A stretch of 64,000 nt of DNA from Verrucomicrobiia bacterium (GCA_036489615.1 DASXFM010000185.1:274-64273); one strand, 5' to 3'; positions 1 to 53,109 are shown, numbered from the stretch's first letter. A program made the numbers and translations. Notes: generated by a model from the sequence alone, not told the origin.

Positions 1-2913
1 AGCGGCCTCAAGAGATTGAATGCGGACGGGCTTGGTGAGGTGGGCGTCAAACCCGGCATTCTCGCTACGAGCAACATCGTGTTCCATCCCGTACCCAGTT
101 AAAGCAATCCCGCGAAGGTGATTTTTTTTGCCGAGTTCGTTCATCAAATCGTAGCCATTGCCATCGGGCAAGCCGATGTCGGTAATGAGCAAATCGAAGC
201 TTCGACTACCCGCCAAAGCGCGCGCTTCGGCAACGGTGGCGGCAGCGGCAACTTCATAACGACGGCGCGCCAGCAGACCAGCGAGGGTCGTGCGGGTGGG
301 CTCGTGGTCTTCGACCAACAAAATGCGGATGCTTTTGGCGCCTGGACCAGCGGAAACGCTTTGCGGTGGTTTGGTCATAGCCAGATCTCCATTAGCTTCG
401 GCCGCGGCGGCCAGGGGCAATTCCACCGTAAAGGTCGAGCCCTGGTCGCGGCCAGCGCTGGAAGCAACAATTTTCCCGGAGTGTAGTTCGGTAAGTTTTT
501 GAGAAATGCTCAGGCCGAGACCCAGGCCGCCAAAGCGGTGGCCGTTGCCAGCAGCGTGATCGCCTTGCGAAAAGGCGGTGAAGATACCGGCGAGCTCCTC
601 CGGCGTCATCCCGATGCCCGTGTCAGAAATCTTCACGAGAATCTTGTTATCGCTGGAAGTAGTTTCGACAATGATTTGCCCGGCATTGGGCGTAAATTTT
701 ACGGAGTTTTTCAAAAGGTTCCAAAAGATTTGCTGGAGCCGAACGGCATCGGCATAGACGGTGTGATGAGCCGCTTTTAAACGCAGGTCGAGGCCAATCT
801 GTTTTTGGTTCATCTCTTCGCGTACCTGGGCAATGGCATCCTGCAAAGTGGAGCGAAGATTAATGGAATTCTTTTCAAGGATGATTTTGCCGCGCGCGAT
901 GCGGGTCAAATCCAACAGGTCATCAATCAGCCGCGCCTCCATCTCAACGTTCTTGCGGATGGTGTTAAAATCCGTCCGGATACGGGGCGGCAAATCGCGG
1001 TTGTTCATGGCATCGCTGGCGAGCAATAAAACGGGGTTCAAGGGCGTGCGCAACTCATGCGAGAGCGTGGCAAGAAAATCGTCTTTGGCGCGCGAAGCGG
1101 CAAGCAACTCAGTGTGGGCGCGCTTCAACTGGTGCAGGACATGTTCGCGTTCGATAGCGAAGGCGATTTGCGAGGCGATAGTCTGAGCCGGGCGCAGTTC
1201 ATCAAGGGTAAATTGATGCGGTTCGCTGAAATAAAGCATGAATTTCCCGAGCAGGCGGTTTTCGTAGGTGACGGGAATAAAAGCCAATGAGCGGATCCCT
1301 TCTGCTTCAACCACTTTCTTCAAACTGTCATCTAAATGGGCTTCAGTAAGATCATCAATCATGACGGGCTGAGGGACTTCTCCTGGTTTCCAGGGTGAAT
1401 GGCCTTCGACGGCACGACGGTAGCCTTCGGAAATGCCGCGCCAGGATTTAAAACGCATGACTCCATCGGCATCTGACAAAAGGATCGAAGCACGGTCGGT
1501 ATTCTGGCATTGAACAATGGTTTCGAGAGCAACATCGCAAATTTTATCCAACGTAGGAGCGGCGTTGACGGTGGCCACCAGTTCAAACAGTGCGCGCTGC
1601 TGGCGCTCGGTGCGCTTGCGGCCGGTGATGTTGCGGGCAATTTTTGAGGCGCCAATGATTTTCTCACTGGCATCTTTGATGGGGGAAATGGTCAGCGAGA
1701 CATCAATCAGGGTTCCATCTTTGCATTGGCGAATGGTTTCGAAGTGCTTGACTTGTTCACCACGACGGATACGGGCAAGAATATCGACCTCTTCCGTCTG
1801 AAGGTTGGCCGGGATCAACGTCATGATGGATTTGCCGATAATCTCAGAGGCTTTGTATTTGAAAATGCGTTCAGCGCCCTGGTTCCAGCTATTGATGATG
1901 CCATTAATATCTTTGCCGACGATGGCGTCATCTGAAGATTCGACGATAGCCGCAAGACGCTGAGTAACGAGTTGCGCCAGATTGCGATCGGTGACATCCA
2001 GGAGCATGTTGAGCGCGCCGGTGATCTTTCCGGAGACGTCGCGAATGAGAGTAGGATAAGGCAAAACGTTGCGGCGTTCGCCATTCGAGCGTTCAATGAT
2101 CAGTTCCTGGCCACGGACGGGCTCGCCGGTTTTTAACGTGACAGCCATGGGGCTATCAGATCCCTGTACTTCAGTTCCGTCCGGGGTATAGGCTTTAAAG
2201 ATGCCACTCCACTGGTCTTTTCCGATTTCCGGACGGCGTCCCCATAATTCAGCCGCCGCATCGTTGTAAAGGGTGACATAACCCTGGGCATCAGTAGTGT
2301 AAATGGCCACGGGCAAATTGCGGACGACCTGCTTGTAGCGCTCTTCACTGAGGCCCAATTCAGCAGTGCGTTCCTGGACACGCATTTCGAGGTCGTTATT
2401 AGCCTGTCGCAAGGCTTCTTCGGCATTCTTACGGTGGACAACTTCTTTTTCTAAAGCCTGGTTAGCGGCCGTCAACGCGCGGGCAATACGAAACAAATCC
2501 ACGAAGGCACCGACTTTGGATTTGAGGATTTCCGGATTGATGGGCTTGGTCAGATAGTCCACGGCACCGGCGCCGTAACCCATAATGATGTCCTTTTCAT
2601 CAAGGAAAAAAGCCGTAAGGAAAATAATAGGAATGTGCTGGTTGCGTTTACGGGTCTTAATCTGCCGGGCCAGTTCAAGACCACTCATGTCCGGCATCTG
2701 GATATCCAAAACGATACAGGCGAATTCCTTGTTCAGGAGGGCGAGCAACGCTTCCTCGGCGCGTAGAGCGCGGACAAGATTCACCCCGGGCATGGTCTCA
2801 AGGATGCTCTCCAGCGCGTCAAGATTCCGGCTTTCGTCGTCCACGAGCAAAACGTTGACCGGTTCAAGGCCCGGTTTTGTTTCAACATTTTTTTCAGAGG
2901 TAGCTGATTCCAT
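1..2913 (-). CDS. Hybrid sensor histidine kinase (REC-PAS-PAS-GAF-HisKA-HATPase-REC). The 3' end runs off the window.
   Basis: Hand translation of the minus strand from ATG at 2913..2911 gives 971 codons with no stop: MESATSEKNV...VLLVDDESRNLDAL..DIQMPDMSGLE (REC), two PAS-like blocks, a GAF-like block, [16 protein letters not shown] (H-box), DTGIGMTPEE..GGLGLGLSIS (ATPase), ILLVEDHEPTR..DIGLPDGNGYD (REC). It is missing from the ORF track because it has no stop inside the window. Confidence 0.85.
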   Translation of the reverse strand, partial: MESATSEKNVETKPGLEPVNVLLVDDESRNLDALESILETMPGVNLVRALRAEEALLALLNKEFACIVLDIQMPDMSGLELARQIKTRKRNQHIPIIFLTAFFLDEKDIIMGYGAGAVDYLTKPINPEILKSKVGAFVDLFRIARALTAANQALEKEVVHRKNAEEALRQANNDLEMRVQERTAELGLSEERYKQVVRNLPVAIYTTDAQGYVTLYNDAAAELWGRRPEIGKDQWSGIFKAYTPDGTEVQGSDSPMAVTLKTGEPVRGQELIIERSNGERRNVLPYPTLIRDVSGKITGALNMLLDVTDRNLAQLVTQRLAAIVESSDDAIVGKDINGIINSWNQGAERIFKYKASEIIGKSIMTLIPANLQTEEVDILARIRRGEQVKHFETIRQCKDGTLIDVSLTISPIKDASEKIIGASKIARNITGRKRTERQQRALFELVATVNAAPTLDKICDVALETIVQCQNTDRASILLSDADGVMRFKSWRGISEGYRRAVEGHSPWKPGEVPQPVMIDDLTEAHLDDSLKKVVEAEGIRSLAFIPVTYENRLLGKFMLYFSEPHQFTLDELRPAQTIASQIAFAIEREHVLHQLKRAHTELLAASRAKDDFLATLSHELRTPLNPVLLLASDAMNNRDLPPRIRTDFNTIRKNVEMEARLIDDLLDLTRIARGKIILEKNSINLRSTLQDAIAQVREEMNQKQIGLDLRLKAAHHTVYADAVRLQQIFWNLLKNSVKFTPNAGQIIVETTSSDNKILVKISDTGIGMTPEELAGIFTAFSQGDHAAGNGHRFGGLGLGLSISQKLTELHSGKIVASSAGRDQGSTFTVELPLAAAAEANGDLAMTKPPQSVSAGPGAKSIRILLVEDHEPTRTTLAGLLARRRYEVAAAATVAEARALAGSRSFDLLITDIGLPDGNGYDLMNELGKKNHLRGIALTGYGMEHDVARSENAGFDAHLTKPVRIQSLEAA

Positions 2914-2943
2914 ATGAAAAATCGGTCAACGGGTCGAAACTGA

Positions 2944-2992
2944 GAAAAGAAAAAGCGGCCAGCCTCGCTTACCGGTGCATGGCGAGGCGGCG
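2944..2992 (-). terminator. Candidate intrinsic terminator downstream of the giant kinase gene
   Basis: On the minus strand, GCCGCCTCGC..loop..GCGAGGCTGGC is followed by CGCTTTTTCTTTTCT. It lies about 77 nt after the stop at 3069. Confidence 0.55.
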
Positions 2993-3068
2993 GAAAAGCA
3001 TCCCACCCCCACGCGCACCGAGGGCAGGAAGGACGGTCCCCACGAAATTTCTGGAAATAATTTCATCA

Positions 3069-9626
<6,558 letters not shown>

Positions 9627-9742
9627 GATAAAATGATTCTTCGTTGCTAAAATTTATTTAACCCGTTACGTGTTGGGCGTCGCGAAATCCAGAAACCTGT
9701 GACTTCTGACATACCCAAAAGACTGATTGGGCAGTTTACAGT

Positions 9743-9758
9743 GGCAAAAAATGTGCCA
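9743..9758 (-). promoter_or_regulatory. Sigma-54 type -24/-12 promoter for the giant kinase gene
   Basis: The minus strand reads TGGCAC-ATTTT-TTGCC, an exact fit to TGGCAC-N5-TTGC. It lies about 115 nt upstream of the ATG at 9626. Confidence 0.7.
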
Positions 9759-9835
9759 GAGCGGATTTTAATTCGATTTGTTGGAAAATCCAAGGGAGGA
9801 TGGGCTTTCTGCATGATTTGAGGCTAAGAAAAATA

Positions 9836-9877
9836 TGCAAAATGCAAAAGCGTTTTGGCGCTCTATTGCAAACTGCA
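9836..9877. promoter_or_regulatory. Pair of TGCA-N3-TGCA boxes (candidate upstream activator site)
   Basis: TGCAaaaTGCA at 9836-9846 and TGCAaacTGCA at 9867-9877, 20 nt apart. They lie about 80-120 bp upstream of the sigma-54 promoter at 9743-9758. Confidence 0.45.
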
Positions 9878-9932
9878 TATATATAATATATCGGCTATAG
9901 AGTCTTAGTTGGTTTTGGCCAGTCTTCCCCAA

Positions 9933-10625
9933 CTAGATCGGCAACGAAAAGAAAAAGCAGGAACCGCCAGGTCTGGATTCGTAACCGCAAACGCCACCTT
10001 GAAGCTCGATTAATCTTTGGACGATGGAGAGACCAAAACCCTTGCCGCCTTCGGGCCGGTGCAAGGTATGGAACGGGCGGAAAAGGCATTTTTGCATTAT
10101 TTCGGGCACACCACCGCCATTGTCGCAGACCTCAAAACGATAGAGACCGTTTTCCTCGCGCCAGGTCAATTCGATGCGGGTGTTATCTGCGGTGTGCTGG
10201 ATGGCGTTCATCAAAAGGTTCCACCAAATTTCTTCAAGCCACTTGGACACACCGTTGACCTGGGGCCATGAACCGGGGTCAACAATGGTGGCATTTTTCT
10301 TAAGCGCCCGGCTTTCAACCCGTTGGAACGCCATGGCAACAGCTTCATTCATGCGCACGGGCGTTTTTGGAAGCGGTTCGGCAGAGGCGCGGGTAATAAA
10401 ACTGATTTGCTTGATCAAATGGGTCAGATCGTCCAACGAATCGGAAATTGAGTGCGTCAGCGTTACCGGCAAATTTTTTTCGGCGAGAATTTCGCGCAAT
10501 ACTTCCGTAGCCGTCATGATGCCGCCGAGCGGGGTCCGCAAATCATGGCTGACACGGGTCGCCATGGTCAACAGGTCGCCACGCAAGCGCGCATTTTCGC
10601 CCACATTGTTGAATCCATTTTGCAT
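9933..10625 (-). CDS. Small soluble histidine kinase core (HisKA + HATPase, no sensor domain)
   Basis: 230 aa. H-box TRVSHDLRTPLGGI, N-box WWNLLMNAIQH, G-boxes DNGGGVPE and GKGFGLSIVQ. No TM segment. Confidence 0.85.
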   Translation of the reverse strand: MQNGFNNVGENARLRGDLLTMATRVSHDLRTPLGGIMTATEVLREILAEKNLPVTLTHSISDSLDDLTHLIKQISFITRASAEPLPKTPVRMNEAVAMAFQRVESRALKKNATIVDPGSWPQVNGVSKWLEEIWWNLLMNAIQHTADNTRIELTWREENGLYRFEVCDNGGGVPEIMQKCLFRPFHTLHRPEGGKGFGLSIVQRLIELQGGVCGYESRPGGSCFFFSLPI

Positions 10626-10744: not shown

Positions 10745-11464
10745 TTAATGGGTCATTGCTCCGGCATTGGTTGAGATGACTTTTGCGGGCGGCTTAACAA
10801 AGATAGATGCCGGAGGCGGCATATTTCCCATATCATATTGGGGGGACCAAATCTTATATTTCTCGGCCTTTTTCGCGGTCTTCGCTTTTTCCGGAATATC
10901 GGTGGCTACCCACGAGATAAAAAGAATTTTATGATAGTCGTGATGAGCTTTGCCGATGAGGGGGCCACTGGAATAAATATGAGCCCGCGATTGGTTCACA
11001 TAAGCGAGCAAGGCAATCTTGGCATAGGAATGCTGGGTCTGCGTTTTGTAGAGTGCAATTTCGGGAATTTCAATCGGAACAGACAAGGGAATGGGAACTG
11101 ACATGTTGGGAATACCAAACAAGATCGTATCGTTGTCAATCGCCAGCGCACCGGCACGGGCCTCAATGATCACATCCGCATTGGTTTCGGTGTTAACGAG
11201 AAGAGCGCCGGCACGGAACAACGCATCACGAATTTCGCCGATGGCATATTTGGAATCGTAACTATCAAAATAGGTGGTATCCAAATAAACGGTGCGGCCG
11301 GCGAACATGTCGAGATCGACCGATGACAAAGCACGATCGGCGGAACTGCTCAGAAGGAGTTGTTCGGTGGCCGAGCGTGGCGGGTTGGTGACCAAAGAGG
11401 AGGCGCAACCGGCGGAAAAAAACGCGACGGCAAGAAACATTGCCAGAACACGCATAGGTTGCAT
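10745..11464 (-). CDS. Lipoprotein of unknown function
   Basis: The ORF is trimmed to MQPMRVLAMFLAVAFFSAGC (lipobox SAGC). The earlier ATG at 11503 would sit at or upstream of the predicted transcription start of the promoter at 11513-11528. Confidence 0.7.
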   Translation of the reverse strand: MQPMRVLAMFLAVAFFSAGCASSLVTNPPRSATEQLLLSSSADRALSSVDLDMFAGRTVYLDTTYFDSYDSKYAIGEIRDALFRAGALLVNTETNADVIIEARAGALAIDNDTILFGIPNMSVPIPLSVPIEIPEIALYKTQTQHSYAKIALLAYVNQSRAHIYSSGPLIGKAHHDYHKILFISWVATDIPEKAKTAKKAEKYKIWSPQYDMGNMPPPASIFVKPPAKVISTNAGAMTH

Positions 11465-11512
11465 TAAGATCAAAAACGAATTATTTCGCACCTCCATAAG
11501 CACAGCGCCTTT

Positions 11513-11528
11513 TGCAGGTTGTGTGCCA
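11513..11528 (-). promoter_or_regulatory. Sigma-54 type promoter
   Basis: The minus strand reads TGGCAC-ACAAC-CTGCA. Confidence 0.6.
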
Positions 11529-11551
11529 TGAATTCTTTGCCCTGCCCCGCT

Positions 11552-11755
11552 TTATCGTTTGGATGGCACGACTGCCAATATTACTCCGCAGATAGCGGAG
11601 GCAATGCCACCAAGCAAGAGCCACATGGTTTTATTGGTCGGCGTTCCATTGAACGTCCGCGAGATGGATGAGCTGGTTGAGTTTGAGGCGTCTACGCCAT
11701 AAATAATCAGGGCGATACCCACGGCGAGCAGTGCGAGTCCAATTGCTTTATTCAT
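11552..11755 (-). CDS. DUF3185-like small two-TM membrane protein
   Basis: 67 aa: MNKAIGLALLAVGIALIIYGVDASNS..SRTFNGTPTNKTMWLLLGGIASAICGVIL. This matches the pattern I recognise for DUF3185. Confidence 0.8.
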   Translation of the reverse strand: MNKAIGLALLAVGIALIIYGVDASNSTSSSISRTFNGTPTNKTMWLLLGGIASAICGVILAVVPSKR

Positions 11756-11777
11756 AATTTAATTAGGGGTTAGTTGG

Positions 11778-11939
11778 TTATCCACGGATCAAGCCAAACA
11801 CGAGGGTGGCGAGAAAGAGAATGATAAAAATAGTGAAGAGAACGCGGGCAATTCCCACGGCTGCTCCGGCAACGCCGGTGAAACCAAGCGCTCCTGCGAT
11901 GAGCGCAACAACCAAGAATATAAGTGTCCAGCTTAACAT
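11778..11939 (-). CDS. DUF1328 / UPF0391 (YtjA-like) small membrane protein
   Basis: Internal start gives MLSWTLIFLVVALIAGALGFTGVAGAAVGIARVLFTIFIILFLATLVFGLIRG (53 aa). A GGGAGG Shine-Dalgarno sits just upstream. The longer ORF-track version adds a non-homologous leader. Confidence 0.85.
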   Translation of the reverse strand: MLSWTLIFLVVALIAGALGFTGVAGAAVGIARVLFTIFIILFLATLVFGLIRG

Positions 11940-11978
11940 AAGTAGTACCTCCCGTTTTAATTTGTTAATTCCCTTATT

Positions 11979-11994
11979 AGCCCAAATCATGCCA
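11979..11994 (-). promoter_or_regulatory. Sigma-54 type promoter (weaker -12 element)
   Basis: The minus strand reads TGGCAT-GATTT-GGGCT, about 40 nt upstream of the DUF1328 ATG. Confidence 0.5.
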
Positions 11995-12027
11995 GCCCTT
12001 TCCAGGGCAAAATTCAGCTTTTTGGAA

Positions 12028-12061
12028 TGCAGAATGCAATTTTGCAGATTTGAACCTTGCA
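12028..12061. promoter_or_regulatory. TGCA box cluster
   Basis: TGCAgaaTGCA at 12028-12038, with further TGCA at 12043 and 12058. It lies 35-70 bp upstream of the promoter at 11979-11994. Confidence 0.4.
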
Positions 12062-12434
12062 TAATGTACCGGTAACGGTTCGTAGAACTAATTGGGCTGG
12101 TTATGGGAGATTTTCCTGCTGTTTAAGCGAGGTGTGGAATAGGCGGGGCGACGAAATAATCGATGTAATTCTGTTTTCTCGCGCATAAGGATATTTTTTC
12201 GCCGGACGGTAAGATTTGAGCCGGCGCGGTTGGTATAAAAACCCAGCATGGACATCGCGGATTGGAAGGGCGTTCCTTTACGACGACGGCTACGCAAGGC
12301 GGAACGTTTAGTGAAAGTGTGATCCGGCGTGCATCGCCCATGGTAAAAAAACATTTTTGCAAATCGAGCGCGTCGCAGCCATGGGCGGCAGCCGACCAAC
12401 GGCTCCCTGATCTAGCGTTCATCCTGTACCTCTA

Positions 12435-12584
12435 TTAGTGGCGTTTGAAAAACTGCACCTGGCGCTCATGACGTTTGGCGGCCTCAAGGGTTTGGAATGT
12501 ACCGAGGTTCCGGCGTTCGCCGGTTTCCGGGTTGCGTTTCCGAGAGTAAAGTCGATATCCACCGTTTTTTAGTTTACGTATCAT
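12435..12584 (-). CDS. Small basic protein, 49 aa (below the ORF-track cutoff)
   Basis: Hand translation gives MIRKLKNGGYRLYSRKRNPETGERRNLGTFQTLEAAKRHERQVQFFKRH*. It resembles a small conserved hypothetical family I have seen, but I cannot name it. Confidence 0.5.
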   Translation of the reverse strand: MIRKLKNGGYRLYSRKRNPETGERRNLGTFQTLEAAKRHERQVQFFKRH

Positions 12585-12663
12585 AAATTATTTTACGACA
12601 TCCTTATCTGCATCGTTTTTGCCAAGGACAGCGGAAAAGCTCGTATCTTCTGTGGGATAATTC

Positions 12664-12679
12664 AGCCCGAAATGTGCCA
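12664..12679 (-). promoter_or_regulatory. Sigma-54 type promoter (weaker -12 element)
   Basis: The minus strand reads TGGCAC-ATTTC-GGGCT, nearly the same as the element at 11979-11994. It lies about 80 nt upstream of the 49-aa ORF. Confidence 0.45.
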
Positions 12680-12711
12680 ATGAAATCCAAGCATAATCCC
12701 CAAAACCTAAA

Positions 12712-12746
12712 TGCAGAGTGCAATTTTTGAAGAGTTACATCATGCA
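12712..12746. promoter_or_regulatory. TGCA box cluster shared by two divergent promoters
   Basis: TGCAgagTGCA at 12712-12722, plus TGCA at 12743-12746 (20 nt spacing). Confidence 0.4.
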
Positions 12747-12827
12747 GTATCATACTTATAAATATTTAAAAACGCTGATTTTGGCTGGATTATGATGGGG
12801 ATTTAGCACTTGCGATTCGGCTAGCCA

Positions 12828-12843
12828 TGGCACTTCTGATGCT
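12828..12843 (+). promoter_or_regulatory. Sigma-54 type promoter
   Basis: TGGCAC-TTCTG-ATGCT. The -12 GC is at 12841-12842, only about 13 nt before the ATG at 12855. Confidence 0.6.
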
Positions 12844-12854
12844 GAAATAGAGTT

Positions 12855-13397
12855 ATGAAAACTAAAATTATTCTACCTATTGTCATCGCTGGCTTTTCGG
12901 CGATGTGTTACGGAGCGGGAGGAACAACGGGCGCGCCGACTGGAGGTGCATCAGCAGGAGCCAGCGGCGCTGCGGGGGCGCCGGGTGCTTCAGGAATCGC
13001 TGTGCCGGGCAATATACCAGGACCTAACGGCACTGCAGTTGGCTCATCTCCCGGAGGGCGGGCAAATCATAACGTTCGAGTGGTGCCCAGACGAATTAAT
13101 CCAAACGCTGCTGCGAACAGGCAAAATCAATTAAACACGCAGAATGGAATGAACATGCAAAATGATGTAAATGCGCGGAATGGTCAGAATGGTATCAATG
13201 GCAATGCCAACGCGAATGTAACCATCACACCAAATGCCCCCGTCAATAATGCAAACGGGACAGTCAATCGGAGTAGCACGGTGAATACACGCAGAGCGGT
13301 CAAAGCCCCGACTTATCAGCGTATTTCGCCGAACGGGAATGATGTTCCCGCAAATAACAATAATAATGCGAACAACCCACCTGATGAACAGCCTTAG
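12855..13397 (+). CDS. Secreted low-complexity (G/A then N/Q-rich) protein
   Basis: Signal-peptide-like MKTKIILPIVIAGFSAMCYGAGG, followed by GA-rich and N-rich tracts. No recognisable domain. Confidence 0.6.
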   Translation: MKTKIILPIVIAGFSAMCYGAGGTTGAPTGGASAGASGAAGAPGASGIAVPGNIPGPNGTAVGSSPGGRANHNVRVVPRRINPNAAANRQNQLNTQNGMNMQNDVNARNGQNGINGNANANVTITPNAPVNNANGTVNRSSTVNTRRAVKAPTYQRISPNGNDVPANNNNNANNPPDEQP

Positions 13398-13426
13398 AAA
13401 AAAACATCAAAAACTTATTCGGACTT

Positions 13427-13993
13427 ATGAAAACAAAAAATTTTCTTTCACTTGCTTTAACGAGCATGACCGCAATATGCAGCGGAGCTCCCGTCGGGAC
13501 AGTGGTTGGGCCAGTTCGTTCACCGACATCCGCTACCCCGGAGCCAACTACATCACAAACGCCAGGGTTGACGCTGCCCCCAGCCAGCATTCCGGCCAAT
13601 CCCAATATTAATCCGAATGTGCCTGGCGATGTTAACGGCAACGGCCGTTTTAATACTGGCTTCGCCAATACCAATTCTCTCTATTCGATCACCAATCCGC
13701 CGGGACAGGGATTTAACCAGCCGTTTGGAAATGCGCCAGGTGGTGCAATCACGCCTCAACAACCCGGCATTAATTCGCAAGTTACGCCAGGCAATACTTT
13801 GCCAACGAGAAGTTCCGCACCGGCAACGGCATCGCCGCCCTATGGCAACAATCCACTTCCAGCGACGGTTGCACCGCAGCCGGGCGTCAACTCAGTACCT
13901 CCAGCAACCACGGCGGTACCGTCAGGAGTAAATTCAATGCCACCGGCTAATACAGCAGTGCCGCAAGGCAACTCCACTCCTCTCAATCCATAA
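13427..13993 (+). CDS. Secreted low-complexity (P/T/N-rich) protein
   Basis: Signal-peptide-like MKTKNFLSLALTSMTAICSGAP, followed by P/N/T/G-rich sequence. It shares the MKTK start with the upstream gene. Confidence 0.6.
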   Translation: MKTKNFLSLALTSMTAICSGAPVGTVVGPVRSPTSATPEPTTSQTPGLTLPPASIPANPNINPNVPGDVNGNGRFNTGFANTNSLYSITNPPGQGFNQPFGNAPGGAITPQQPGINSQVTPGNTLPTRSSAPATASPPYGNNPLPATVAPQPGVNSVPPATTAVPSGVNSMPPANTAVPQGNSTPLNP

Positions 13994-14018
13994 TAAGGAG
14001 GAGCCAGATATTCACGAA

Positions 14019-14053
14019 AGACCGATGCCTGAACGGGCATGGTCTTTGTTTTT
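14019..14053 (+). terminator. Intrinsic terminator
   Basis: GACCGATGCC-loop-GGCATGGTC followed by TTTGTTTTT. Confidence 0.7.
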
Positions 14054-14063
14054 AAAAATAAAC

Positions 14064-14100
14064 TAAAAAAGCAAAAGCCGACGCTAGATGCGCCGGCTTG
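14064..14100 (-). terminator. Intrinsic terminator for the BON gene
   Basis: On the minus strand, AAGCCGGCGC-loop-GCGTCGGCTT (one mismatch) followed by TTGCTTTTTTAG. Confidence 0.6.
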
Positions 14101-14146
14101 CTCACTTCGCCTACCTTATCAATGACCGGACGGAACCGGTTCCCCA

Positions 14147-14485
14147 CTATTGATTCGATTGGACCGTGATATTGTTTTCAACATCGGTTACGCCTTGAAC
14201 ATTTTTGGTAATGTCCTTGGCCTCGGACTTTTGGTCCGAGTTTTGAACAAATCCGCTCAACTGTACGGTGCCGCGATAAACGTCGACATTCACATTGTCG
14301 AATTTATATTCAGCATTGTCTTTCAACGCGTCGTGCACTTCACGCTGCAGGGTTTTGTCATCAATGTACTGGCCAGTGCTACGGCTGTTGTCGCTCGAGG
14401 CGCAACCGGTAAAGGTGCCAACGGCAGTGGTGGTTAACAGACCCAAACAAAGGGCCAAACTTACTAATTTACTGGTGTTTTTCAT
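14147..14485 (-). CDS. BON-domain lipoprotein (OsmY-like)
   Basis: 112 aa, lipobox FTGC. DDKTLQREVHDALKDN...VDVYRGTVQLSGFVQNSDQKSEAKDITKNVQGVTDVENNITV is a typical BON domain. Confidence 0.9.
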   Translation of the reverse strand: MKNTSKLVSLALCLGLLTTTAVGTFTGCASSDNSRSTGQYIDDKTLQREVHDALKDNAEYKFDNVNVDVYRGTVQLSGFVQNSDQKSEAKDITKNVQGVTDVENNITVQSNQ

Positions 14486-14552
14486 GATGTCTCCTTTTTT
14501 AGTTGTTTTATAGTTCTACCATCTACTAACTCCTACTCCTTTGCGCTTCTTT

Positions 14553-14568
14553 AGCTCATCTCATGCCA
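14553..14568 (-). promoter_or_regulatory. Weak sigma-54 type promoter candidate
   Basis: The minus strand reads TGGCAT-GAGAT-GAGCT. The GG-N10-GC spacing is correct but the -12 element is poor. Confidence 0.4.
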
Positions 14569-14591
14569 TAGGTGTGAGAAATACATAAACG

Positions 14592-15179
14592 CTAACGGCA
14601 CAAGGAAAGGATACTGCCGGCACAACCATCCATTTCCTGGAAGGGGCCGAGCGGCCTAACGTTGCTATCTTCGCGAGAGATATCCGGTTCGCCAGAGGAA
14701 AGGGTGTAAACCACCGTATCATCTTTGATCAGGATAAGTCCTTTGAACCGCCAGCCCGATTGATGGGTCTGACGCTTGAACCCAAAGACATCCAAAACCA
14801 GGCTGCCGTGCCGCTTTTCTTTGACATTCTCCAATTCCACGAGATAGGCCTGATTGCCTTTCTTAGCTTGAACGTATATGCGAACGCCAATGGGCAAATC
14901 ATCCATATGAATATTGGGGTTTGGCATGAATATCGGCATTACATCCACATAGGGCATAATCTTAATGTTGGGGGTAACTTTGGGATCAAAACCCATGGTC
15001 TGTAAGTCAGCGATCGTAGTATGATTGGGGGCGATTTTGTTGAAGGCGATGCTGATTTGATCCCAATTTGTCCATGGCGTGAGGGTGGATGACTGGCGGC
15101 TAATAAACAGGCTTTGACAACCCGCTGTCAAAAACATCGCTCCCGTGACGATCGCTAAGATGACCACTCGCACTATCAC
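14592..15179 (-). CDS. Lipoprotein of unknown function
   Basis: GTG start with AAGGAG about 8 nt upstream. MIVRVVILAIVTGAMFLTAGC (lipobox TAGC). Confidence 0.7.
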   Translation of the reverse strand: MIVRVVILAIVTGAMFLTAGCQSLFISRQSSTLTPWTNWDQISIAFNKIAPNHTTIADLQTMGFDPKVTPNIKIMPYVDVMPIFMPNPNIHMDDLPIGVRIYVQAKKGNQAYLVELENVKEKRHGSLVLDVFGFKRQTHQSGWRFKGLILIKDDTVVYTLSSGEPDISREDSNVRPLGPFQEMDGCAGSILSLCR

Positions 15180-15212
15180 AACAATACGCTCCTTAACTTT
15201 CCAAAAATCGTT

Positions 15213-15228
15213 AGCACGTGATATGCCG
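15213..15228 (-). promoter_or_regulatory. Sigma-54 type promoter
   Basis: The minus strand reads CGGCAT-ATCAC-GTGCT. Confidence 0.55.
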
Positions 15229-15281
15229 CTAATTGTTATGCTTGATGTCCAACAACGACAATCACATCTGAAATCTTATGA

Positions 15282-15322
15282 TGCAATCTGCAAATCGTGA
15301 ATAAATCCAATTGCAGTTTGCA
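15282..15322. promoter_or_regulatory. Pair of TGCA-N3-TGCA boxes between divergent promoters
   Basis: TGCAatcTGCA at 15282-15292 and TGCAgttTGCA at 15312-15322, 19 nt apart. Confidence 0.45.
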
Positions 15323-15396
15323 AAAATAGATAGAGTGGATGAATGACAGACTTTCCCGAAACTAAGGAAATCGTTACATATTTTTTATTTGGTGAA

Positions 15397-15412
15397 CGGC
15401 ACATCGCTTGCA
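15397..15412 (+). promoter_or_regulatory. Sigma-54 type promoter pointing into a region with no confident gene
   Basis: CGGCAC-ATCGC-TTGCA, with an exact TTGCA -12 element. Confidence 0.6.
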
Positions 15413-15510
15413 AGGGAGGCGGCATCACACGAGTGAAAAATAGAAGCCAAAATAGTATCCAAAAAAAATCGACGGGTAGCTTTTTACTCTTCCGACTGCA
15501 TCAAAATCTA

Positions 15511-15663
15511 ATGAAAGCGCGCGAGATCATCAGTGACCGGGTCATACCCCTGGCGCCAAAGGGTTCCAGAAGGAATCCGAAAGGGCGTGACCTTCCTGTT
15601 CACTTTTCCATCGATACCGCGCGCGCCTTTGAAATAAAAAACTGCAACCACGAATGCCTATGA
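15511..15663 (+). CDS. Hypothetical small protein (50 aa)
   Basis: This is the first ATG downstream of the predicted start of the promoter at 15397-15412: MKAREIISDRVIPLAPKGSRRNPKGRD... No homology recognised. Confidence 0.3.
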   Translation: MKAREIISDRVIPLAPKGSRRNPKGRDLPVHFSIDTARAFEIKNCNHECL

Positions 15664-15887
15664 ATCCATTATTTCAATCCATAACTGAAAGGCCCCTTAT
15701 CCCCGGTTTATTTCAAATTGCCGCCTGCGCGGGCGGCCCGGTGCCCCAAAACCTGGGGCAGACACCGTTTGCGGATATGATGCTTAACCCCAAAAAGCTG
15801 GAGGCCATCTTAAGAACGATCGCGAGGCTGGAAAAGCCAGTCACGCGCCGCAATTCTGCTGGACGCCTTGCTAAAAGGGTACGTTAA
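15654..15887 (+). CDS. Hypothetical protein (77 aa)
   Basis: It overlaps the previous ORF by 10 nt. No homology recognised. It contains GC-rich hairpins (GCCGCC..GGCGGC, TGCCCC..GGGGCA), so it could instead be structured RNA. Confidence 0.3.
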   Translation: MPMNPLFQSITERPLIPGLFQIAACAGGPVPQNLGQTPFADMMLNPKKLEAILRTIARLEKPVTRRNSAGRLAKRVR

Positions 15888-15917
15888 GAGACCACAGAGG
15901 CCTGCCCGCACAAAAAC

Positions 15918-16454
15918 CTAATTGGAAAGAGAGGCGGTGCGATAATAGCGGTGGGGAAACTGGGTGGTATTGGAATCAACGAAATTAAAGGGCGCGACAT
16001 TCGTCTGGAGTGCAACCCAATGAACCAGATCGGTTGAGGCCTGCACAACGTACTGGGAATTGGCGGCACCGGTCACCGTAAATCCAAATTGGCCGGGAGA
16101 GGTAAGGAGCGAGGTAATCGCAGCGGCCGCCGACAAGGTTTGACCAACAACGCCGGAAATTTCAGGAGAATAACCGCTCTGGTTACCGGAACCGTCATAA
16201 GAGGTCGCCGAAAAATAGTAGGTTACGCCGCTGGTCAATCCGCGAATCGTAACGTTAGTGGCGCTGGGATTAAGAACGGAAACGGCAGAAGTATAATTGC
16301 CGCTGGAGGTGCCATAATAAATGTCATAACCGACGACATTAGTGCCTGAGCTGGGAGTCCAACTAATGGTGGCGGTTCCCATCCCCTGTGATTTCGCACC
16401 CATTGCAAATAGCAACAACCCCGCGAACGTAAAAAGAATTAGTATCCTACGCAT
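15918..16454 (-). CDS. Secreted fibronectin type III domain protein
   Basis: Signal peptide. ISWTPSSGTNVVGYDIYYGTSSGNYTS..VTIRGLTSGVTYYFSATSYDGSGNQS is an FN3 domain. The C-terminal beta-sandwich-like domain ends FPHRYYRTASLSN. Confidence 0.85.
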   Translation of the reverse strand: MRRILILFTFAGLLLFAMGAKSQGMGTATISWTPSSGTNVVGYDIYYGTSSGNYTSAVSVLNPSATNVTIRGLTSGVTYYFSATSYDGSGNQSGYSPEISGVVGQTLSAAAAITSLLTSPGQFGFTVTGAANSQYVVQASTDLVHWVALQTNVAPFNFVDSNTTQFPHRYYRTASLSN

Positions 16455-16797
16455 AACTACAATTTTTCTGTGTATCTATTTTTTAGTATTCGGAATTGCC
16501 TGAATTCCGTCGTTTGAAGGAAACAACACATGCTGCTTCCGCCCGTTTCAAACGAATCTACCGCAACAACCTTTGCAATCAACAATGCAAAATGCGGCGA
16601 GACTTTCTTAGAAAACCCGCGAAGAAAAACAATAGTGAGAAGAGAACTCCCCTTCGCCTGTCTGCTTCACCAGCTAACTAACTCTGCCTGTGATGATAGG
16701 TTATCCAGAAGGGCCTGAATTGCAAGCACTTTTTTTAGGAGAGAGCATAAAAAAGGATAAATCGTAGTACTAATTTAAAGGGCGGAAGGTAATTTTT

Positions 16798-16840
16798 TGC
16801 ACCTTGCAACTAATGCAGGCAAAAAAGTTTGCGCTCTGCA
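16798..16840. promoter_or_regulatory. TGCA box cluster
   Basis: TGCAcctTGCA at 16798-16808, with TGCA at 16814 and 16837. Confidence 0.4.
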
Positions 16841-16905
16841 TACCTTTTAGGATGCGACTTTTCGCCATTTATTCAAATTACGGGGTTTTGATCAATTTCA
16901 GGCAT

Positions 16906-16921
16906 CGGCATAGTCACTGCT
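16906..16921 (+). promoter_or_regulatory. Sigma-54 type promoter
   Basis: CGGCAT-AGTCA-CTGCT, about 50 nt upstream of the DUF892 ATG. Confidence 0.55.
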
Positions 16922-16971: not shown

Positions 16972-17484
16972 ATGAGGAAACTGGAAGATTTATTTTTGGA
17001 TGCCCTAGCGGATGTTTATTACGCAGAGCAAAAGCTGGAAAAGGCATTACCAGAAATGGCCAAGGCAGCCACCCACGATGGCTTGCGGGCGGCATTTGAA
17101 GGACATCTGACCGAGACACGTCATCACGCGGAACTATGCGAGGAAATCTTTGGACTGTTTGGGCAGAAACCGAAAGCCATAAAGTGCAAAGCTATTCTCG
17201 GCATCATTGATGAGGCAGAGGATTTAATTTCGGAAAATAAAAAGTCGCCGACCATCAACGCAGCGCTGATCCTAGGTGGCCAGAAAGCCGAGCATTATGA
17301 AATCGCATCGTATGGCACGTTGCGTGAATGGGCCAAACAGCTCCAGCGCGAGGATGCGGCGGGATTAATCGACCAAATCCTGGAGCAGGAAAAGGCCGCC
17401 GATGTCAAATTGACACGGCTAGGGCAGGAATATTGCAACTCCGCAGCCAAAAGCGGCGGTGATGATATGCGAATGGCAGCATAA
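16972..17484 (+). CDS. DUF892 / YciE-YciF-like ferritin-like stress protein
   Basis: LEDLFLDALADVYYAEQKLEKALPEMAKAA...HLTETRHH...AEHYEIASYGTL is the characteristic DUF892 pattern. Confidence 0.9.
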   Translation: MRKLEDLFLDALADVYYAEQKLEKALPEMAKAATHDGLRAAFEGHLTETRHHAELCEEIFGLFGQKPKAIKCKAILGIIDEAEDLISENKKSPTINAALILGGQKAEHYEIASYGTLREWAKQLQREDAAGLIDQILEQEKAADVKLTRLGQEYCNSAAKSGGDDMRMAA

Positions 17485-17531: not shown

Positions 17532-17565
17532 GGCCGGAATTTGCCTGTATTCCGGCCTTTTTTTC
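17532..17565 (+). terminator. Intrinsic terminator
   Basis: GGCCGGAAT-loop-ATTCCGGCC followed by TTTTTTT. Confidence 0.75.
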
Positions 17566-18664: not shown

Positions 18665-18808
18665 TCTTCGCAGTGCGGTTCATGTAACAGCTTTCTTCGC
18701 AGCGTTCCCGAAGTCTTCCGCCGACATTAGGCAAAGTAAGAAAGAATTTTTGCCAGAAATTTTCCGAATCATATTACAGGGAAATTGTTTTTACTTATTA
18801 AAGATTTT

Positions 18809-18834
18809 TGCAAGTTGCACACAAAAAAGTTGCA
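18809..18834. promoter_or_regulatory. TGCA box cluster at the head of the EPS operon
   Basis: TGCAagtTGCA at 18809-18819, plus TGCA at 18831-18834. Confidence 0.4.
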
Positions 18835-18936
18835 AATCGCCTTTGCGTGACACATAGCACAACGGTTTTTAGAAGTAACTGTGAGGAACTATGGCAAAAC
18901 TCAATTGGCATATTTCTTGTTAATGCAGTTCCGCGA

Positions 18937-52323: not shown

Positions 52324-52339
52324 TGGCACTCCCTATGCT
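52324..52339 (+). promoter_or_regulatory. Sigma-54 type promoter of the PEP-CTERM protein gene
   Basis: TGGCAC-TCCCT-ATGCT, about 57 nt upstream of the ATG at 52396, with an AAGGAG Shine-Dalgarno in between. Confidence 0.7.
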
Positions 52340-52395
52340 TTAGATAAAAACTGACGATTGCAAAATACAAGGAAATCGAACAAGGAGTATGTAGT

Positions 52396-52986
52396 ATGAA
52401 AAGTAAATTGATTGGTATGGCGGCGACCGCAATGGTCGTCCTGGGTGTAGGTGGAATTGCTCAAGCGGTTCCGATTAGCGGCGACATCACCTTTGCTGGT
52501 GGCGTAACTCTCAACACTTCCTCGGCAGGAACTGCCGCTGAGGTTTTGAATTGGACTGGTCCCGGCGGCACAGGTTTGCCGCTTGTTATCAGCGATGACG
52601 GAAGCTTTTCCGGTATTGCGCCCGGTACAACGGCAACGTTTGCAAGTCCTTGGTTTTTCAACTCGGGATCGGTGACGGCGCTGTTCACAGTGGGTGGCTT
52701 TACGTATAACCTAACTTCATCACATATCATTTACCAAGGTGGGAACCCCGCCGGCGTGGTGGTGGACGGAATTGGCTCTATCTCGGGGAACGGCCTCGAC
52801 TCGGAAGCCATGGACTGGAGCTTCTCCACGTCCGATCCGTCCGCTCTCGGAGTAGATGCTGCGGTGTTCTCGTTTCAAGTGGCGGCAGGCACGACGGGAA
52901 CTGTTCCGGATGGTGGCACGACCGCGATGCTGCTGGGCTTGGGCGTCCTCGGGCTTGGCTTGCTGAAGAAACAGATCTTCGCTTAA
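52396..52986 (+). CDS. PEP-CTERM sorting-domain protein (exosortase substrate)
   Basis: Signal peptide. The C-terminus GTVPDGGTTAMLLGLGVLGLGLLKKQIFA carries a VPDGG variant of the PEP motif, a TM helix and a basic tail. Confidence 0.9.
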   Translation: MKSKLIGMAATAMVVLGVGGIAQAVPISGDITFAGGVTLNTSSAGTAAEVLNWTGPGGTGLPLVISDDGSFSGIAPGTTATFASPWFFNSGSVTALFTVGGFTYNLTSSHIIYQGGNPAGVVVDGIGSISGNGLDSEAMDWSFSTSDPSALGVDAAVFSFQVAAGTTGTVPDGGTTAMLLGLGVLGLGLLKKQIFA

Positions 52987-53013
52987 CCAAAGCATTGTCA
53001 GCACACAATTTTT

Positions 53014-53048
53014 GGGCGGGAAAATTTTCCCGCTCAAAATTTATTTTT
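53014..53048 (+). terminator. Candidate terminator
   Basis: Perfect palindrome GCGGGAAAATTTTCCCGC followed by a T-rich run (TCAAAATTTATTTTT). Confidence 0.5.
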
Positions 53049-53109
53049 CTCGACACGTCTTCAAGAGGTTTCAGTTCCAACCCGATCAACCGACGAACAC
53101 GAAACTCTT

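What the first reader, a model, noticed from the sequence alone, without database searches (positions are those of the whole stretch)
11513..16921. Dense set of sigma-54 promoters driving genes that resemble a general-stress/osmotic regulon
Elements with GG-N10-GC spacing that fit YGGCAY-N5-nTGCW:
- 11513-11528(-), in front of a lipoprotein
- 11979-11994(-), in front of DUF1328 and DUF3185
- 12664-12679(-), in front of the 49-aa basic protein
- 12828-12843(+), in front of the secreted low-complexity proteins
- 14553-14568(-), weak, in front of the BON/OsmY-like gene
- 15213-15228(-), in front of a lipoprotein
- 15397-15412(+), in front of an unknown unit
- 16906-16921(+), in front of DUF892/YciE-F-like

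In E. coli the counterparts osmY and yciGFE are classic RpoS-dependent stress genes. Here the equivalent gene set appears to be wired to RpoN instead. That is an unusual regulatory solution and would define a stress regulon for this lineage. The units are short and separately terminated, with hairpin terminators at 14019, 14064 and 17532.
Basis: partly seen in the sequence, partly recalled or inferred. Interest (0 to 1): 0.65.

Follow-up and report, generated by a model that had tools for sequence, protein, structure and literature searches.

The report
Sigma-54 stress-gene regulon in soil Verrucomicrobia
A soil Verrucomicrobia genome appears to drive its OsmY/YciEF/YtjA/CsbD-type stress genes from sigma-54 promoters that share a newly recognised upstream activator box, a wiring conserved in relatives and unlike the RpoS wiring of E. 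coli.

Summary
All eight sites exist as written, all with GG-N10-GC. The cluster is not chance. It holds 7 strict matches in 5.4 kb against about 0.25 expected, the densest such cluster in the 5.98-Mb genome.

I found a ninth promoter in front of a 2185-aa poly-HAMP hybrid kinase. I also found a shared upstream palindrome, TTGCA-N3-TGCAA. It often occurs in pairs about 30 bp apart, 45-120 nt upstream of the GG.

Both elements are conserved while the spacers drift. Of 27 close Verrucomicrobiia DUF892 orthologues, 24 carry the promoter. None of 51 more distant homologues, nearly all from other phyla, does.

Elsewhere in the genome, sigma-54-like sites precede further stress-type genes: DUF892, DUF1328, DUF3175, DUF6496 and an OMP gene followed by two BON genes. 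They also precede the genome's only CsbD and KGG (YciG-like) genes; those two were tested as predictions.

rpoN is present, about 15 full-length activator genes are present, and no true RpoS was found.

Three things remain open: there are no transcription-start data, the activator is unidentified, and the inducing stress is inferred from gene content. It is a new regulon of a known mechanism.

The parts
9743..9758 (-). Additional sigma-54 promoter TGGCACATTTTTTGCC, about 117 nt upstream of the poly-HAMP kinase start codon
   Evidence: Equivalent promoter plus boxes occur before the paralogue at C555 and the orthologue in L046.
9835..9878 (.). Pair of TGCA boxes (ATGCAAAATGCAA and TTGCAAACTGCAT), 31 bp apart, 77-108 nt upstream of the kinase promoter
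3069..9626 (-). 2185-aa soluble hybrid histidine kinase: at least 12 HAMP repeats, GAF, HisKA, HATPase and three receiver domains. A regulon member and a candidate sensor.
   Evidence: Pfam.
11513..11528 (-). Site 1, TGGCACACAACCTGCA. No TGCA box nearby. The conserved ATG(GAGG) start lies 16 nt downstream.
   Evidence: The promoter is conserved before DUF6655 lipoprotein genes in G002, G014, G015 and paralogue C277.
10745..11497 (-). DUF6655 lipoprotein gene. Start reassigned to the ATG at 11497 by comparison with orthologues.
   Evidence: Pfam. N-terminus comparison.
11979..11994 (-). Site 2, TGGCATGATTTGGGCT, variant -12 element
   Evidence: The same box-N31-promoter architecture occurs at paralogue C492. 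DUF1328 genes in L033 and L035 have a sigma-54 site plus box.
12027..12039 (-). TGCA box TTGCATTCTGCAT, 31-32 nt upstream of site 2
11552..11939 (-). DUF1328 (11778-11939) and DUF3185 (11552-11755) small membrane protein genes
   Evidence: Pfam. NCBIfam.
12664..12679 (-). Site 3, TGGCACATTTCGGGCT
   Evidence: The paralogous operon at C388 has TTGCATTCTGCAT-N31-TGGCATGGTTTGGGCT.
12711..12723 (.). TGCA box shared by the divergent promoters, sites 3 and 4
12088..12584 (-). 49-aa basic protein gene (12435-12584) followed by a frameshifted DUF3175 homologue (12088-12422)
   Evidence: An intact copy of the pair is at C388.
12828..12843 (+). Site 4, TGGCACTTCTGATGCT. The ATG lies 12 nt after the motif, which implies a leaderless mRNA.
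   Evidence: Paralogue C170 has the same d=12 arrangement.
12855..13993 (+). Two secreted low-complexity proteins (180 and 188 aa), followed by a hairpin at 14025-14040
14553..14568 (-). Site 5, TGGCATGAGATGAGCT. Weakest -12 element, no box nearby.
   Evidence: BON orthologues L108, L111 and L112 have their own sigma-54 sites. Other BON genes sit in operons behind an OMP gene.
14147..14485 (-). Single-BON lipoprotein gene, with a terminator at 14099-14075
15213..15228 (-). Site 6, CGGCATATCACGTGCT
   Evidence: Conserved at G015 (with a box) and at paralogue C545.
14592..15179 (-). 195-aa lipoprotein of unknown family
15281..15323 (.). Pair of TGCA boxes (ATGCAATCTGCAA and TTGCAGTTTGCAA), 30 bp apart, shared by the divergent sites 6 and 7
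15397..15412 (+). Site 7, CGGCACATCGCTTGCA
   Evidence: L027 has CGGCATAATGATTGCA plus two boxes.
15654..15887 (+). 77-aa ORF downstream of site 7, conserved with the ORF behind the L027 promoter (49% identity over 37 aa)
16797..16841 (.). Pair of TGCA boxes (TTGCACCTTGCAA and TTGCGCTCTGCAT), 32 bp apart, 65-97 nt upstream of site 8
   Evidence: The same pair is conserved in most of the 27 close relatives.
16906..16921 (+). Site 8, CGGCATAGTCACTGCT
   Evidence: A strict sigma-54 motif precedes 24 of 27 close orthologues and 0 of 51 more distant homologues.
16972..17484 (+). DUF892 (YciE/YciF-like ferritin-like) gene, with a terminator at 17532-17557
   Evidence: Pfam 170 bits. Terminator. One soil metatranscriptome contig covers 17249-17473.

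Best explanation
This locus is the core of a sigma-54 regulon in a clade of soil Verrucomicrobiia.

Proposed mechanism:
1. RNA polymerase with sigma-54 sits on the -24 GG / -12 GC elements as a closed complex.
2. One enhancer-binding AAA+ activator (bEBP), not yet identified, binds the palindrome TTGCA-N3-TGCAA. The boxes lie 45-120 nt upstream of the GG. They are usually two, about 30 bp (three helical turns) apart. In a GGGCT subclass there is a single box exactly 30-31 nt upstream of the TGGCA.
3. The activated bEBP opens the promoters by ATP hydrolysis.

Targets. They are short, separately terminated units encoding small envelope and stress-type proteins:
- DUF892 (YciE/F-like)
- a single-BON lipoprotein
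- DUF1328 (YtjA-like) and DUF3185
- the 49-aa protein with DUF3175
- lipoproteins and secreted disordered proteins

Elsewhere in the genome, sigma-54-like sites precede CsbD, KGG, DUF6496, an EgtB-like gene and an OMP-BON-BON unit. Not all of these have a box.

Two giant poly-HAMP hybrid kinases carry the same promoter plus boxes. They are plausibly the sensors that feed the activator, which would make a feedback loop.

What is shown and what is inferred:
- Shown: motif presence, clustering, orientation, conservation, co-occurrence of promoter and box, and presence of rpoN and bEBP genes.
- Inferred: actual sigma-54 dependence, the identity and role of the box-binding protein, the kinase-to-activator link, and induction by osmotic, desiccation or stationary-phase stress.
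For: - Clustering. 7 strict sites in 5.4 kb against 0.25 expected, the densest cluster in the genome. The box pattern TTGCN4TGCA has 218 genome hits, of which 9-12 lie here; this is also its densest cluster.
- Coupling of box and promoter. Of 30 intergenic boxes with at most 1 mismatch, 19 have a sigma-54-like site (score 10 or more) firing away within 15-130 nt, and 4 have one firing toward. About 0.9 would be expected.
- Conservation without spacer conservation. DUF892 carries the promoter in 24 of 27 close orthologues and in 0 of 51 more distant homologues.
- The composite box-plus-promoter pattern occurs in 7 of 25 same-genus genomes and in 11 of 301 genomes across the phylum. The reversed-pattern control gives 0 everywhere.
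- Sigma-54 machinery is present.
- Start codons behave as expected for a transcription start about 11 nt after the motif. For sites scoring 12 or more, 0 start codons lie 0-8 nt downstream and 14 lie at 9-15 nt. Low-scoring sites give 3 and 1.
- Sigma-70-like promoters are not enriched in the locus: 12 found against 12.0 expected.
- Prospective tests on CsbD and KGG were positive.
- Paralogues of the locus genes elsewhere also carry such promoters.
- YtjA (DUF1328) is tightly sigma-S controlled in Salmonella (PMC5437024). YciF (DUF892) is a stress protein (bioRxiv 10.1101/2023.01.20.524870).
Against: - No 5'-end or expression data exist. Only one 225-nt soil metatranscriptome contig lies on the DUF892 gene.
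- No bEBP gene has a box next to it, and none could be assigned. The MAG is 88% complete.
- Sites 1 and 5 have no box within 250 nt.
- Three sites have non-consensus -12 elements (GGGCT, GAGCT).
- The CsbD site scores only 8.6 on a generic matrix.
- The KGG promoter has only a 2-mismatch box about 270 nt away, beyond a tRNA gene.
- Many targets are envelope proteins, so 'envelope remodelling' fits as well as 'general stress'.
- My generic sigma-54 matrix and my gene calls are home-made approximations.
Confidence: 0.75

Rival explanations
1. The sites are real sigma-54 promoters with a shared activator. However, the programme is cell-envelope, biofilm or exopolysaccharide remodelling or a developmental switch, not a general or osmotic stress response.
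For: - Most products are lipoproteins, OMPs, small membrane proteins or secreted disordered proteins.
- The locus abuts a 34-kb polysaccharide operon whose upstream region also carries TGCA boxes at 18808-18840.
- Sigma-54 is generally linked to the bacterial exterior (PMC3162934). In the PVC relative Chlamydia it is linked to membrane reorganisation (PMC7482065).
Against: - Cytoplasmic stress-type proteins also carry sigma-54-like sites: DUF892 three times, CsbD, KGG, DUF3175, DUF6496 and an EgtB-like gene.
- The EPS operon lacks a canonical -12 GC.
- The two readings are not exclusive.
Confidence: 0.17
2. The -24/-12 elements are sigma-54 promoters, but the TGCA boxes are not the enhancer. 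They bind a repressor, a nucleoid protein or another factor. The promoters are served by several different bEBPs.
For: - Sites 1 and 5 have conserved promoters without boxes.
- In the GGGCT subclass the single box is unusually close, 30-31 nt from the TGGCA.
- No bEBP could be tied to the box.
Against: - Dyad symmetry, pairs spaced about three helical turns apart, and position 45-120 nt upstream are typical of bEBP sites.
- A single box cluster is shared by divergent promoters.
- The boxes are strongly coupled in orientation to sigma-54 sites.
- Promoter and box are conserved together.
Confidence: 0.06
3. The motifs are chance matches, or copies of a dispersed repeat, without promoter function.
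For: - Generic GG-N10-GC matches are common: 2626 score 9 or more genome-wide.
- Some sites score modestly, at 10.7-12.
Against: - Cluster statistics.
- All sites are intergenic and correctly oriented.
- The motifs are conserved across relatives while the spacers diverge.
- The reversed-pattern control gives zero.
Confidence: 0.02

Closest known systems
E. coli/Salmonella RpoS (sigma-S) stress genes osmY, yciGFE, ytjA and the CsbD family
   Same: The same protein families are involved: DUF892, KGG, BON, DUF1328 and CsbD. The genes are likewise organised as short independent units.
   Different: Here the promoters are -24/-12 sigma-54 type with an enhancer box, not -35/-10 sigma-70-family type. 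No RpoS orthologue was found. The BON protein has one BON domain and a lipobox and is not an OsmY orthologue.
NtrC-type enhancer architecture (e.g. glnAp2), sigma-54 with two dyad activator sites upstream
   Same: GG-N10-GC promoters. Two dyad-symmetric sites on the same helical face, 50-120 nt upstream. Divergent promoters can share one enhancer. NtrC-family REC-AAA+-HTH activators are encoded in the genome.
   Different: The box sequence TTGCA-N3-TGCAA is not the NtrC site (TGCACC-N5-GGTGCA, from my own knowledge). The targets are stress and envelope genes, not nitrogen assimilation. The activator is unidentified.
Sigma-54 envelope-stress regulons (PspF/psp, ZraR/zraP) and the 'sigma-54 controls the bacterial exterior' theme (Francke 2011, PMC3162934)
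   Same: Sigma-54 plus a dedicated bEBP switches on small envelope-protective proteins.
   Different: Those regulons hold one or two operons. This one has about 20-30 promoters and contains the families typical of general stress regulons. The cited survey does not mention Verrucomicrobia.
Chlamydia trachomatis sigma-54/CtcC regulon (PMC7482065), the only sigma-54 regulon study from the PVC superphylum that my searches returned
   Same: A PVC-group bacterium, an NtrC-like activator, and membrane-protein targets.
   Different: The gene content differs (late developmental and T3SS genes). No shared box is known. I did not compare the sequences.
Alphaproteobacterial EcfG/PhyR and Bacillus SigB general stress regulons
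   Same: By my own knowledge, they contain overlapping families (CsbD, KGG, BON, DUF892-type).
   Different: They are driven by ECF or group-3 sigma-70-family factors with partner-switching control, not by sigma-54 and an ATPase activator.
Fungal group III hybrid histidine kinases (Nik1/TcsC), poly-HAMP osmosensors of the HOG pathway (PMC11253588; poly-HAMP arrays PMC13446029)
   Same: A soluble hybrid kinase with a long tandem HAMP array and receiver domain(s).
   Different: The kinase here is bacterial, with at least 12 repeats and three receivers. No osmosensing is shown. The resemblance is a lead only.

Membership tests
Sigma-54 (-24/-12) promoter class | Invariant GG and GC dinucleotides spaced exactly 10 nt apart, in a TGGCAC-N5-TTGCW context | tested here: met
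   All 8 sites, plus the ninth, have GG-N10-GC with YGGCAY. Five of the 8 claimed sites have nTGCW, and three have GGGCT or GAGCT.
Sigma-54 (-24/-12) promoter class | The organism encodes RpoN and enhancer-binding AAA+ activators | tested here: met
   TIGR02395 scores 418 bits against a cut-off of 277. Sixteen strong PF00158 hits, one of them cut off at a contig end.
Sigma-54 (-24/-12) promoter class | Upstream activator sites (enhancer) at a distance from the promoter | tested here: met
   TTGCA-N3-TGCAA boxes lie upstream of 6 of the 8 claimed sites and of the ninth. They are absent at sites 1 and 5.
Sigma-54 (-24/-12) promoter class | Transcription starts about 11-13 nt downstream of the GC and depends on rpoN and ATP hydrolysis by a bEBP | not testable with these tools
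   There is only indirect support. No start codon lies 0-8 nt after high-scoring motifs, and there is a peak at 9-15 nt. No RNA 5'-end data exist.
Sigma-54 (-24/-12) promoter class | Evolutionary conservation of the element in front of orthologous genes | tested here: met
RpoS (sigma-S) regulon | Presence of an RpoS orthologue | tested here: not met
   The best TIGR02394 score is 305 bits, below the cut-off of 378.7. That hit is a 346-aa sigma-70 paralogue.
OsmY | A periplasmic protein with two BON domains that reaches the NCBIfam equivalog score | tested here: not met
   It has one BON domain. NF007858 scores 47 bits against a cut-off of 174, and the protein has a lipobox.
YciE/YciF (DUF892, ferritin-like) | A full-length PF05974 match | tested here: met
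   170 bits, profile positions 2-158 of 159. Ferroxidase activity was not tested.
YtjA (DUF1328) | A PF07043 or PRK13682 match over the whole 53-aa protein | tested here: met
   Pfam 52.7 bits. NF010228 scores 73.5 bits against a cut-off of 71.
General stress regulon (functional class) | Co-induction by osmotic, desiccation or stationary-phase stress, and a protective phenotype | not testable with these tools
   Only gene content speaks for it.

The most novel reading that the evidence does not exclude
In this Verrucomicrobiia clade sigma-54 has taken over the role that RpoS, SigB or EcfG play elsewhere. One bEBP that recognises TTGCA-N3-TGCAA acts as master regulator of a general stress (osmotic or desiccation) response. 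It is fed by autoregulated soluble poly-HAMP hybrid kinases that sense water activity much like the fungal group III kinases of the HOG pathway. Many of its transcripts are leaderless.
Probability: 0.3. Interest if true: 0.75.

Novelty: new member of a known kind. Interest (0 to 1): 0.58.

Why it matters
Verrucomicrobiia are abundant and mostly uncultured soil bacteria. How they survive drying and osmotic shifts is unknown.

This analysis yields a concrete, testable regulon:
- about 20-30 sigma-54 promoters
- a defined 13-bp activator box
- candidate poly-HAMP sensors

The families that define general stress responses in model bacteria are wired here to the enhancer-dependent sigma factor. That is an all-or-none, ATP-gated switch, not a competing sigma-70-type factor.

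The regulon also provides motif markers that can be followed in soil metatranscriptomes.

Tried and rejected
- **RNA evidence.** Only soil DNA runs and one metatranscriptome hold the locus. One 225-nt contig lies on the DUF892 gene, and there is no 5'-end information.
- **Identifying the activator.**
  - None of the bEBP genes has a box with at most 1 mismatch in its own upstream region.
  - The bEBP in the window (53110-54471) sits next to a VPDSG-CTERM gene with its own sigma-54 promoter, so it is more likely a PrsR-like regulator.
  - An operon at C468 with a nearby box-like sequence showed no promoter.
  - The bEBP at C360:1610-2959(-) is orthologous (73-79% identity) to a bEBP lying 3-5.7 kb from DUF892 in L050, L053 and L055. 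In L053, the one locus examined, housekeeping genes lie between, so this is only a weak lead.
- **Dispersed-repeat origin.** Rejected, because the spacers between box and promoter are unrelated among paralogous loci.
- **Sigma-70 promoters as an alternative.** Their count in the locus equals chance.
- **Dps/ferritin (PF00210) and catalase (PF00199) as further regulon tests.** Neither family was found in this 88%-complete MAG, so they could not be tested.
- **Literature.** I found no paper on a sigma-54 stress regulon in Verrucomicrobia, and none linking RpoN with DUF892.

Full report
**Observation.**

All have GG-N10-GC in a YGGCAY context. Five fit the full nTGCW -12 element. Sites 2 and 3 read GGGCT and site 5 reads GAGCT. 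Each lies in an intergenic spacer and faces the adjacent gene.

The pattern YGGCAYN6KGCW occurs 12 times in the window against 3.4 +/- 1.8 in shuffles. It occurs 273 times in the 5.98-Mb genome. That gives about 0.25 expected per 5.4 kb against 7 observed, and this is the densest cluster in the genome. By my hand calculation from those numbers, the Poisson probability for one window is about 1e-8.

Pfam confirms the gene calls: DUF6655 lipoprotein, DUF3185, DUF1328, BON and DUF892. The 49-aa protein, the 195-aa lipoprotein and the two secreted low-complexity proteins match no family. The three terminator hairpins are found.

**What else is there.**

A ninth promoter, TGGCACATTTTTTGCC (9743-9758, minus strand), precedes a 2185-aa soluble hybrid kinase. 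That kinase has at least 12 HAMP repeats, GAF, HisKA, HATPase and three receiver domains.

Upstream of six of the eight claimed sites, and of the ninth, lies a palindrome, TTGCA-N3-TGCAA. It is often present as two copies 30-32 bp apart, 45-120 nt before the GG. Single box clusters are shared by the divergent pairs 3/4 and 6/7. The loose pattern TTGCN4TGCA has 218 genome hits, and 9-12 of them are in this locus, again the densest cluster.

Genome-wide there are 30 intergenic boxes with at most one mismatch. Nineteen have a sigma-54-like site firing away within 15-130 nt and 4 have one firing toward, against about 0.9 expected.

Earlier first-reader notes on this genome had also seen the boxes and the kinase promoter. 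I had reached both independently, before reading them.

**Is sigma-54 plausible here?**

The DNA is from a soil Verrucomicrobiia MAG, 88% complete, as shown by the record titles of its closest relatives. It encodes one rpoN and about 15 full-length NtrC-family activators. No RpoS passes the curated cut-off. A 346-aa group-2-like sigma-70 paralogue does exist.

I scored sites with a generic sigma-54 matrix of my own making. High-scoring sites are strongly enriched in intergenic DNA: 43% at score 15 or more, against 6% at score 9-10. Judged from N-terminal sequence only, they also precede classical sigma-54 targets such as a flagellar rod gene and a pilin-like gene.

Start codons behave as expected if transcription begins about 11 nt after the motif. 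Among sites scoring 12 or more, none has a start codon 0-8 nt downstream and 14 have one at 9-15 nt. Low-scoring sites give 3 and 1. It also suggests that many of these transcripts are leaderless.

Sigma-70-like promoters are at chance level in the locus.

**Conservation.**

Upstream of DUF892 orthologues from 27 close Verrucomicrobiia (59-85% protein identity), 24 carry a strict sigma-54 motif. The typical form is CGGCAY-N5-nTTGCT followed by aaa. Most also carry the pair TTGCAACCTGCAA and TTGCGCnnTGCAA at fixed distances, while the spacers are unalignable.

None of 51 more distant DUF892 homologues does. Forty-eight of these are from other phyla (Bacteroidota, Proteobacteria, Gemmatimonadota) and three are more distant Verrucomicrobia.

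Equivalents of the other sites:
- Site 1 is conserved before DUF6655 lipoprotein genes of G002, G014, G015 and paralogue C277.
- Site 6 is conserved in G015 and in paralogue C545.
- Site 7 is conserved in L027, with two boxes and a conserved small ORF.
- Sites 2 and 3 have paralogous copies with the identical architecture, box-N31-TGGCAYGnTTTGGGCT, at C492 and C388.
- Site 4 has a paralogue with the same 12-nt distance to the ATG at C170.
- The weak site 5 has counterparts before some BON orthologues. Other BON genes sit in operons behind an OMP gene, and in G000 (C524) that OMP gene has a sigma-54 site.

The composite box-plus-promoter pattern occurs in 7 of 25 same-genus genomes and in 0 of 16 genomes from other families of the order. 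It occurs in 11 of 301 genomes sampled across the phylum, some with paired boxes. The reversed-pattern control gives zero in all 342 genome searches.

**Regulon content and the stress reading.**

Elsewhere in the genome, sigma-54-like sites with a box precede these genes:
- two more DUF892 genes
- a second DUF1328
- an intact 49-aa plus DUF3175 pair
- DUF6496 proteins
- an EgtB-like DinB_2 protein
- a second poly-HAMP kinase
- several small proteins

An OMP-BON-BON unit at C524 has a sigma-54 site before the OMP gene and a box-plus-promoter further upstream.

I then tested the stress idea prospectively with hallmark general-stress families not yet examined.
- The genome's only CsbD gene has a box 73 nt upstream of AGGCACATTTTAAGCT, which lies 37 nt before its ATG.
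- The only KGG (YciG-like) gene has TGGCATATATCCAGCT about 55 nt before its ATG.
- Ferritin/Dps and catalase were not found in the MAG.

YtjA (DUF1328) is tightly sigma-S-controlled in Salmonella (PMC5437024). YciF (DUF892) is a stress-protective ferroxidase (bioRxiv 10.1101/2023.01.20.524870).

As far as sequence can show, that claim is supported.

**Mechanism proposed.**

Sigma-54 holoenzyme is held at the -24/-12 elements. One bEBP binds the TGCA boxes. When activated, probably by phosphorylation, it remodels the closed complex. The poly-HAMP hybrid kinases carry the same control region in this genome, in its paralogue and in a relative. They are therefore candidate sensors in a feedback loop.

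The resemblance of these kinases to the fungal group III osmosensing kinases is a lead only (PMC11253588, PMC13446029).

**Limits.**

- No transcription starts or expression data exist beyond one metatranscriptome contig.
- The activator is unassigned.
- Sites 1 and 5 lack boxes.
- The BON protein is not an OsmY orthologue.
- An envelope-remodelling reading is equally compatible with much of the gene content (PMC3162934).
- I found no prior description of such a regulon in Verrucomicrobia.

**Verdict.**

This is a real, conserved sigma-54 regulon with a newly defined enhancer box. The mechanism is of a known kind. What is new is the membership (general-stress-type families) and the lineage.

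Noticed in passing
window 12088-12422 (-): The stretch downstream of the 49-aa gene is a DUF3175 homologue split over two overlapping frames. This is a frameshift, either a pseudogene or an assembly error. An intact 49-aa plus DUF3175 (99 aa, Pfam 132 bits) pair with the same promoter architecture lies at G000:C388:5953-6444.
   Followed up: yes
genome-wide; in the window, site 4 (ATG at 12855) and site 1 (ATG at 11497): Many high-scoring sigma-54 sites sit 9-15 nt before the start codon, and none sits 0-8 nt before it. This implies leaderless or near-leaderless sigma-54 transcripts in this organism. The start of the DUF6655 lipoprotein gene is probably the conserved ATG(GAGG) at 11497, not a downstream ATG.
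   Followed up: partly
window 52324-54471 (+): The sigma-54 promoter TGGCACTCCCTATGCT precedes a VPDSG-CTERM protein gene (52396-52986). An NtrC-type bEBP gene follows directly (53110-54471). A paralogous VPDSG gene at C307 has a sigma-54 promoter and lies about 3 kb from a bEBP gene. This looks like a PEP-CTERM/PrsR-like sorting-signal system, separate from the TGCA-box regulon.
   Followed up: partly
window 54920-54935 (-): The best generic sigma-54 match of the window, TGGCATGCTGGATGCA (score 15.9), lies inside the ketohexokinase-like gene (54476-55603), on its coding strand. It is an intragenic site of unknown meaning.
   Followed up: no
window 18808-18910 (+): TGCA boxes (TTGCAAGTTGCA and GTTGCAAATCG) lie upstream of the NusG-like gene that heads the polysaccharide operon of about 34 kb. 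The nearest -24-like element, TGGCATATTTCTTGTT, has GT instead of GC at -12. This is a possible degenerate member of the regulon.
   Followed up: partly
window 12609-12624 (-): A second sigma-54-like site, TGGCAAAAACGATGCA (score 12.9), lies between site 3 and the 49-aa gene, 87 nt from the shared box. It may be a tandem promoter or a chance match. The paralogue at C388 has only the GGGCT-type site.
   Followed up: partly
window 1-10625 (-): Three consecutive kinases lie here with no output domain: a REC-PAS-GAF-HK-REC hybrid, the 2185-aa poly-HAMP hybrid, and a bare 230-aa HisKA/HATPase core. The poly-HAMP kinase has a 2089-aa paralogue at C555 with the same promoter and boxes.
   Followed up: partly
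L027 (closest relative contig) versus window 15650-15920: In L027 the segment behind the site-7 promoter is inverted relative to the window. There the small conserved ORF runs in frame into a gene that looks like a DegT-type aminotransferase (my reading of the sequence, not tested). In the window the ORF ends after 77 aa, next to the 3' end of the fn3 gene. This indicates a local rearrangement.
   Followed up: partly
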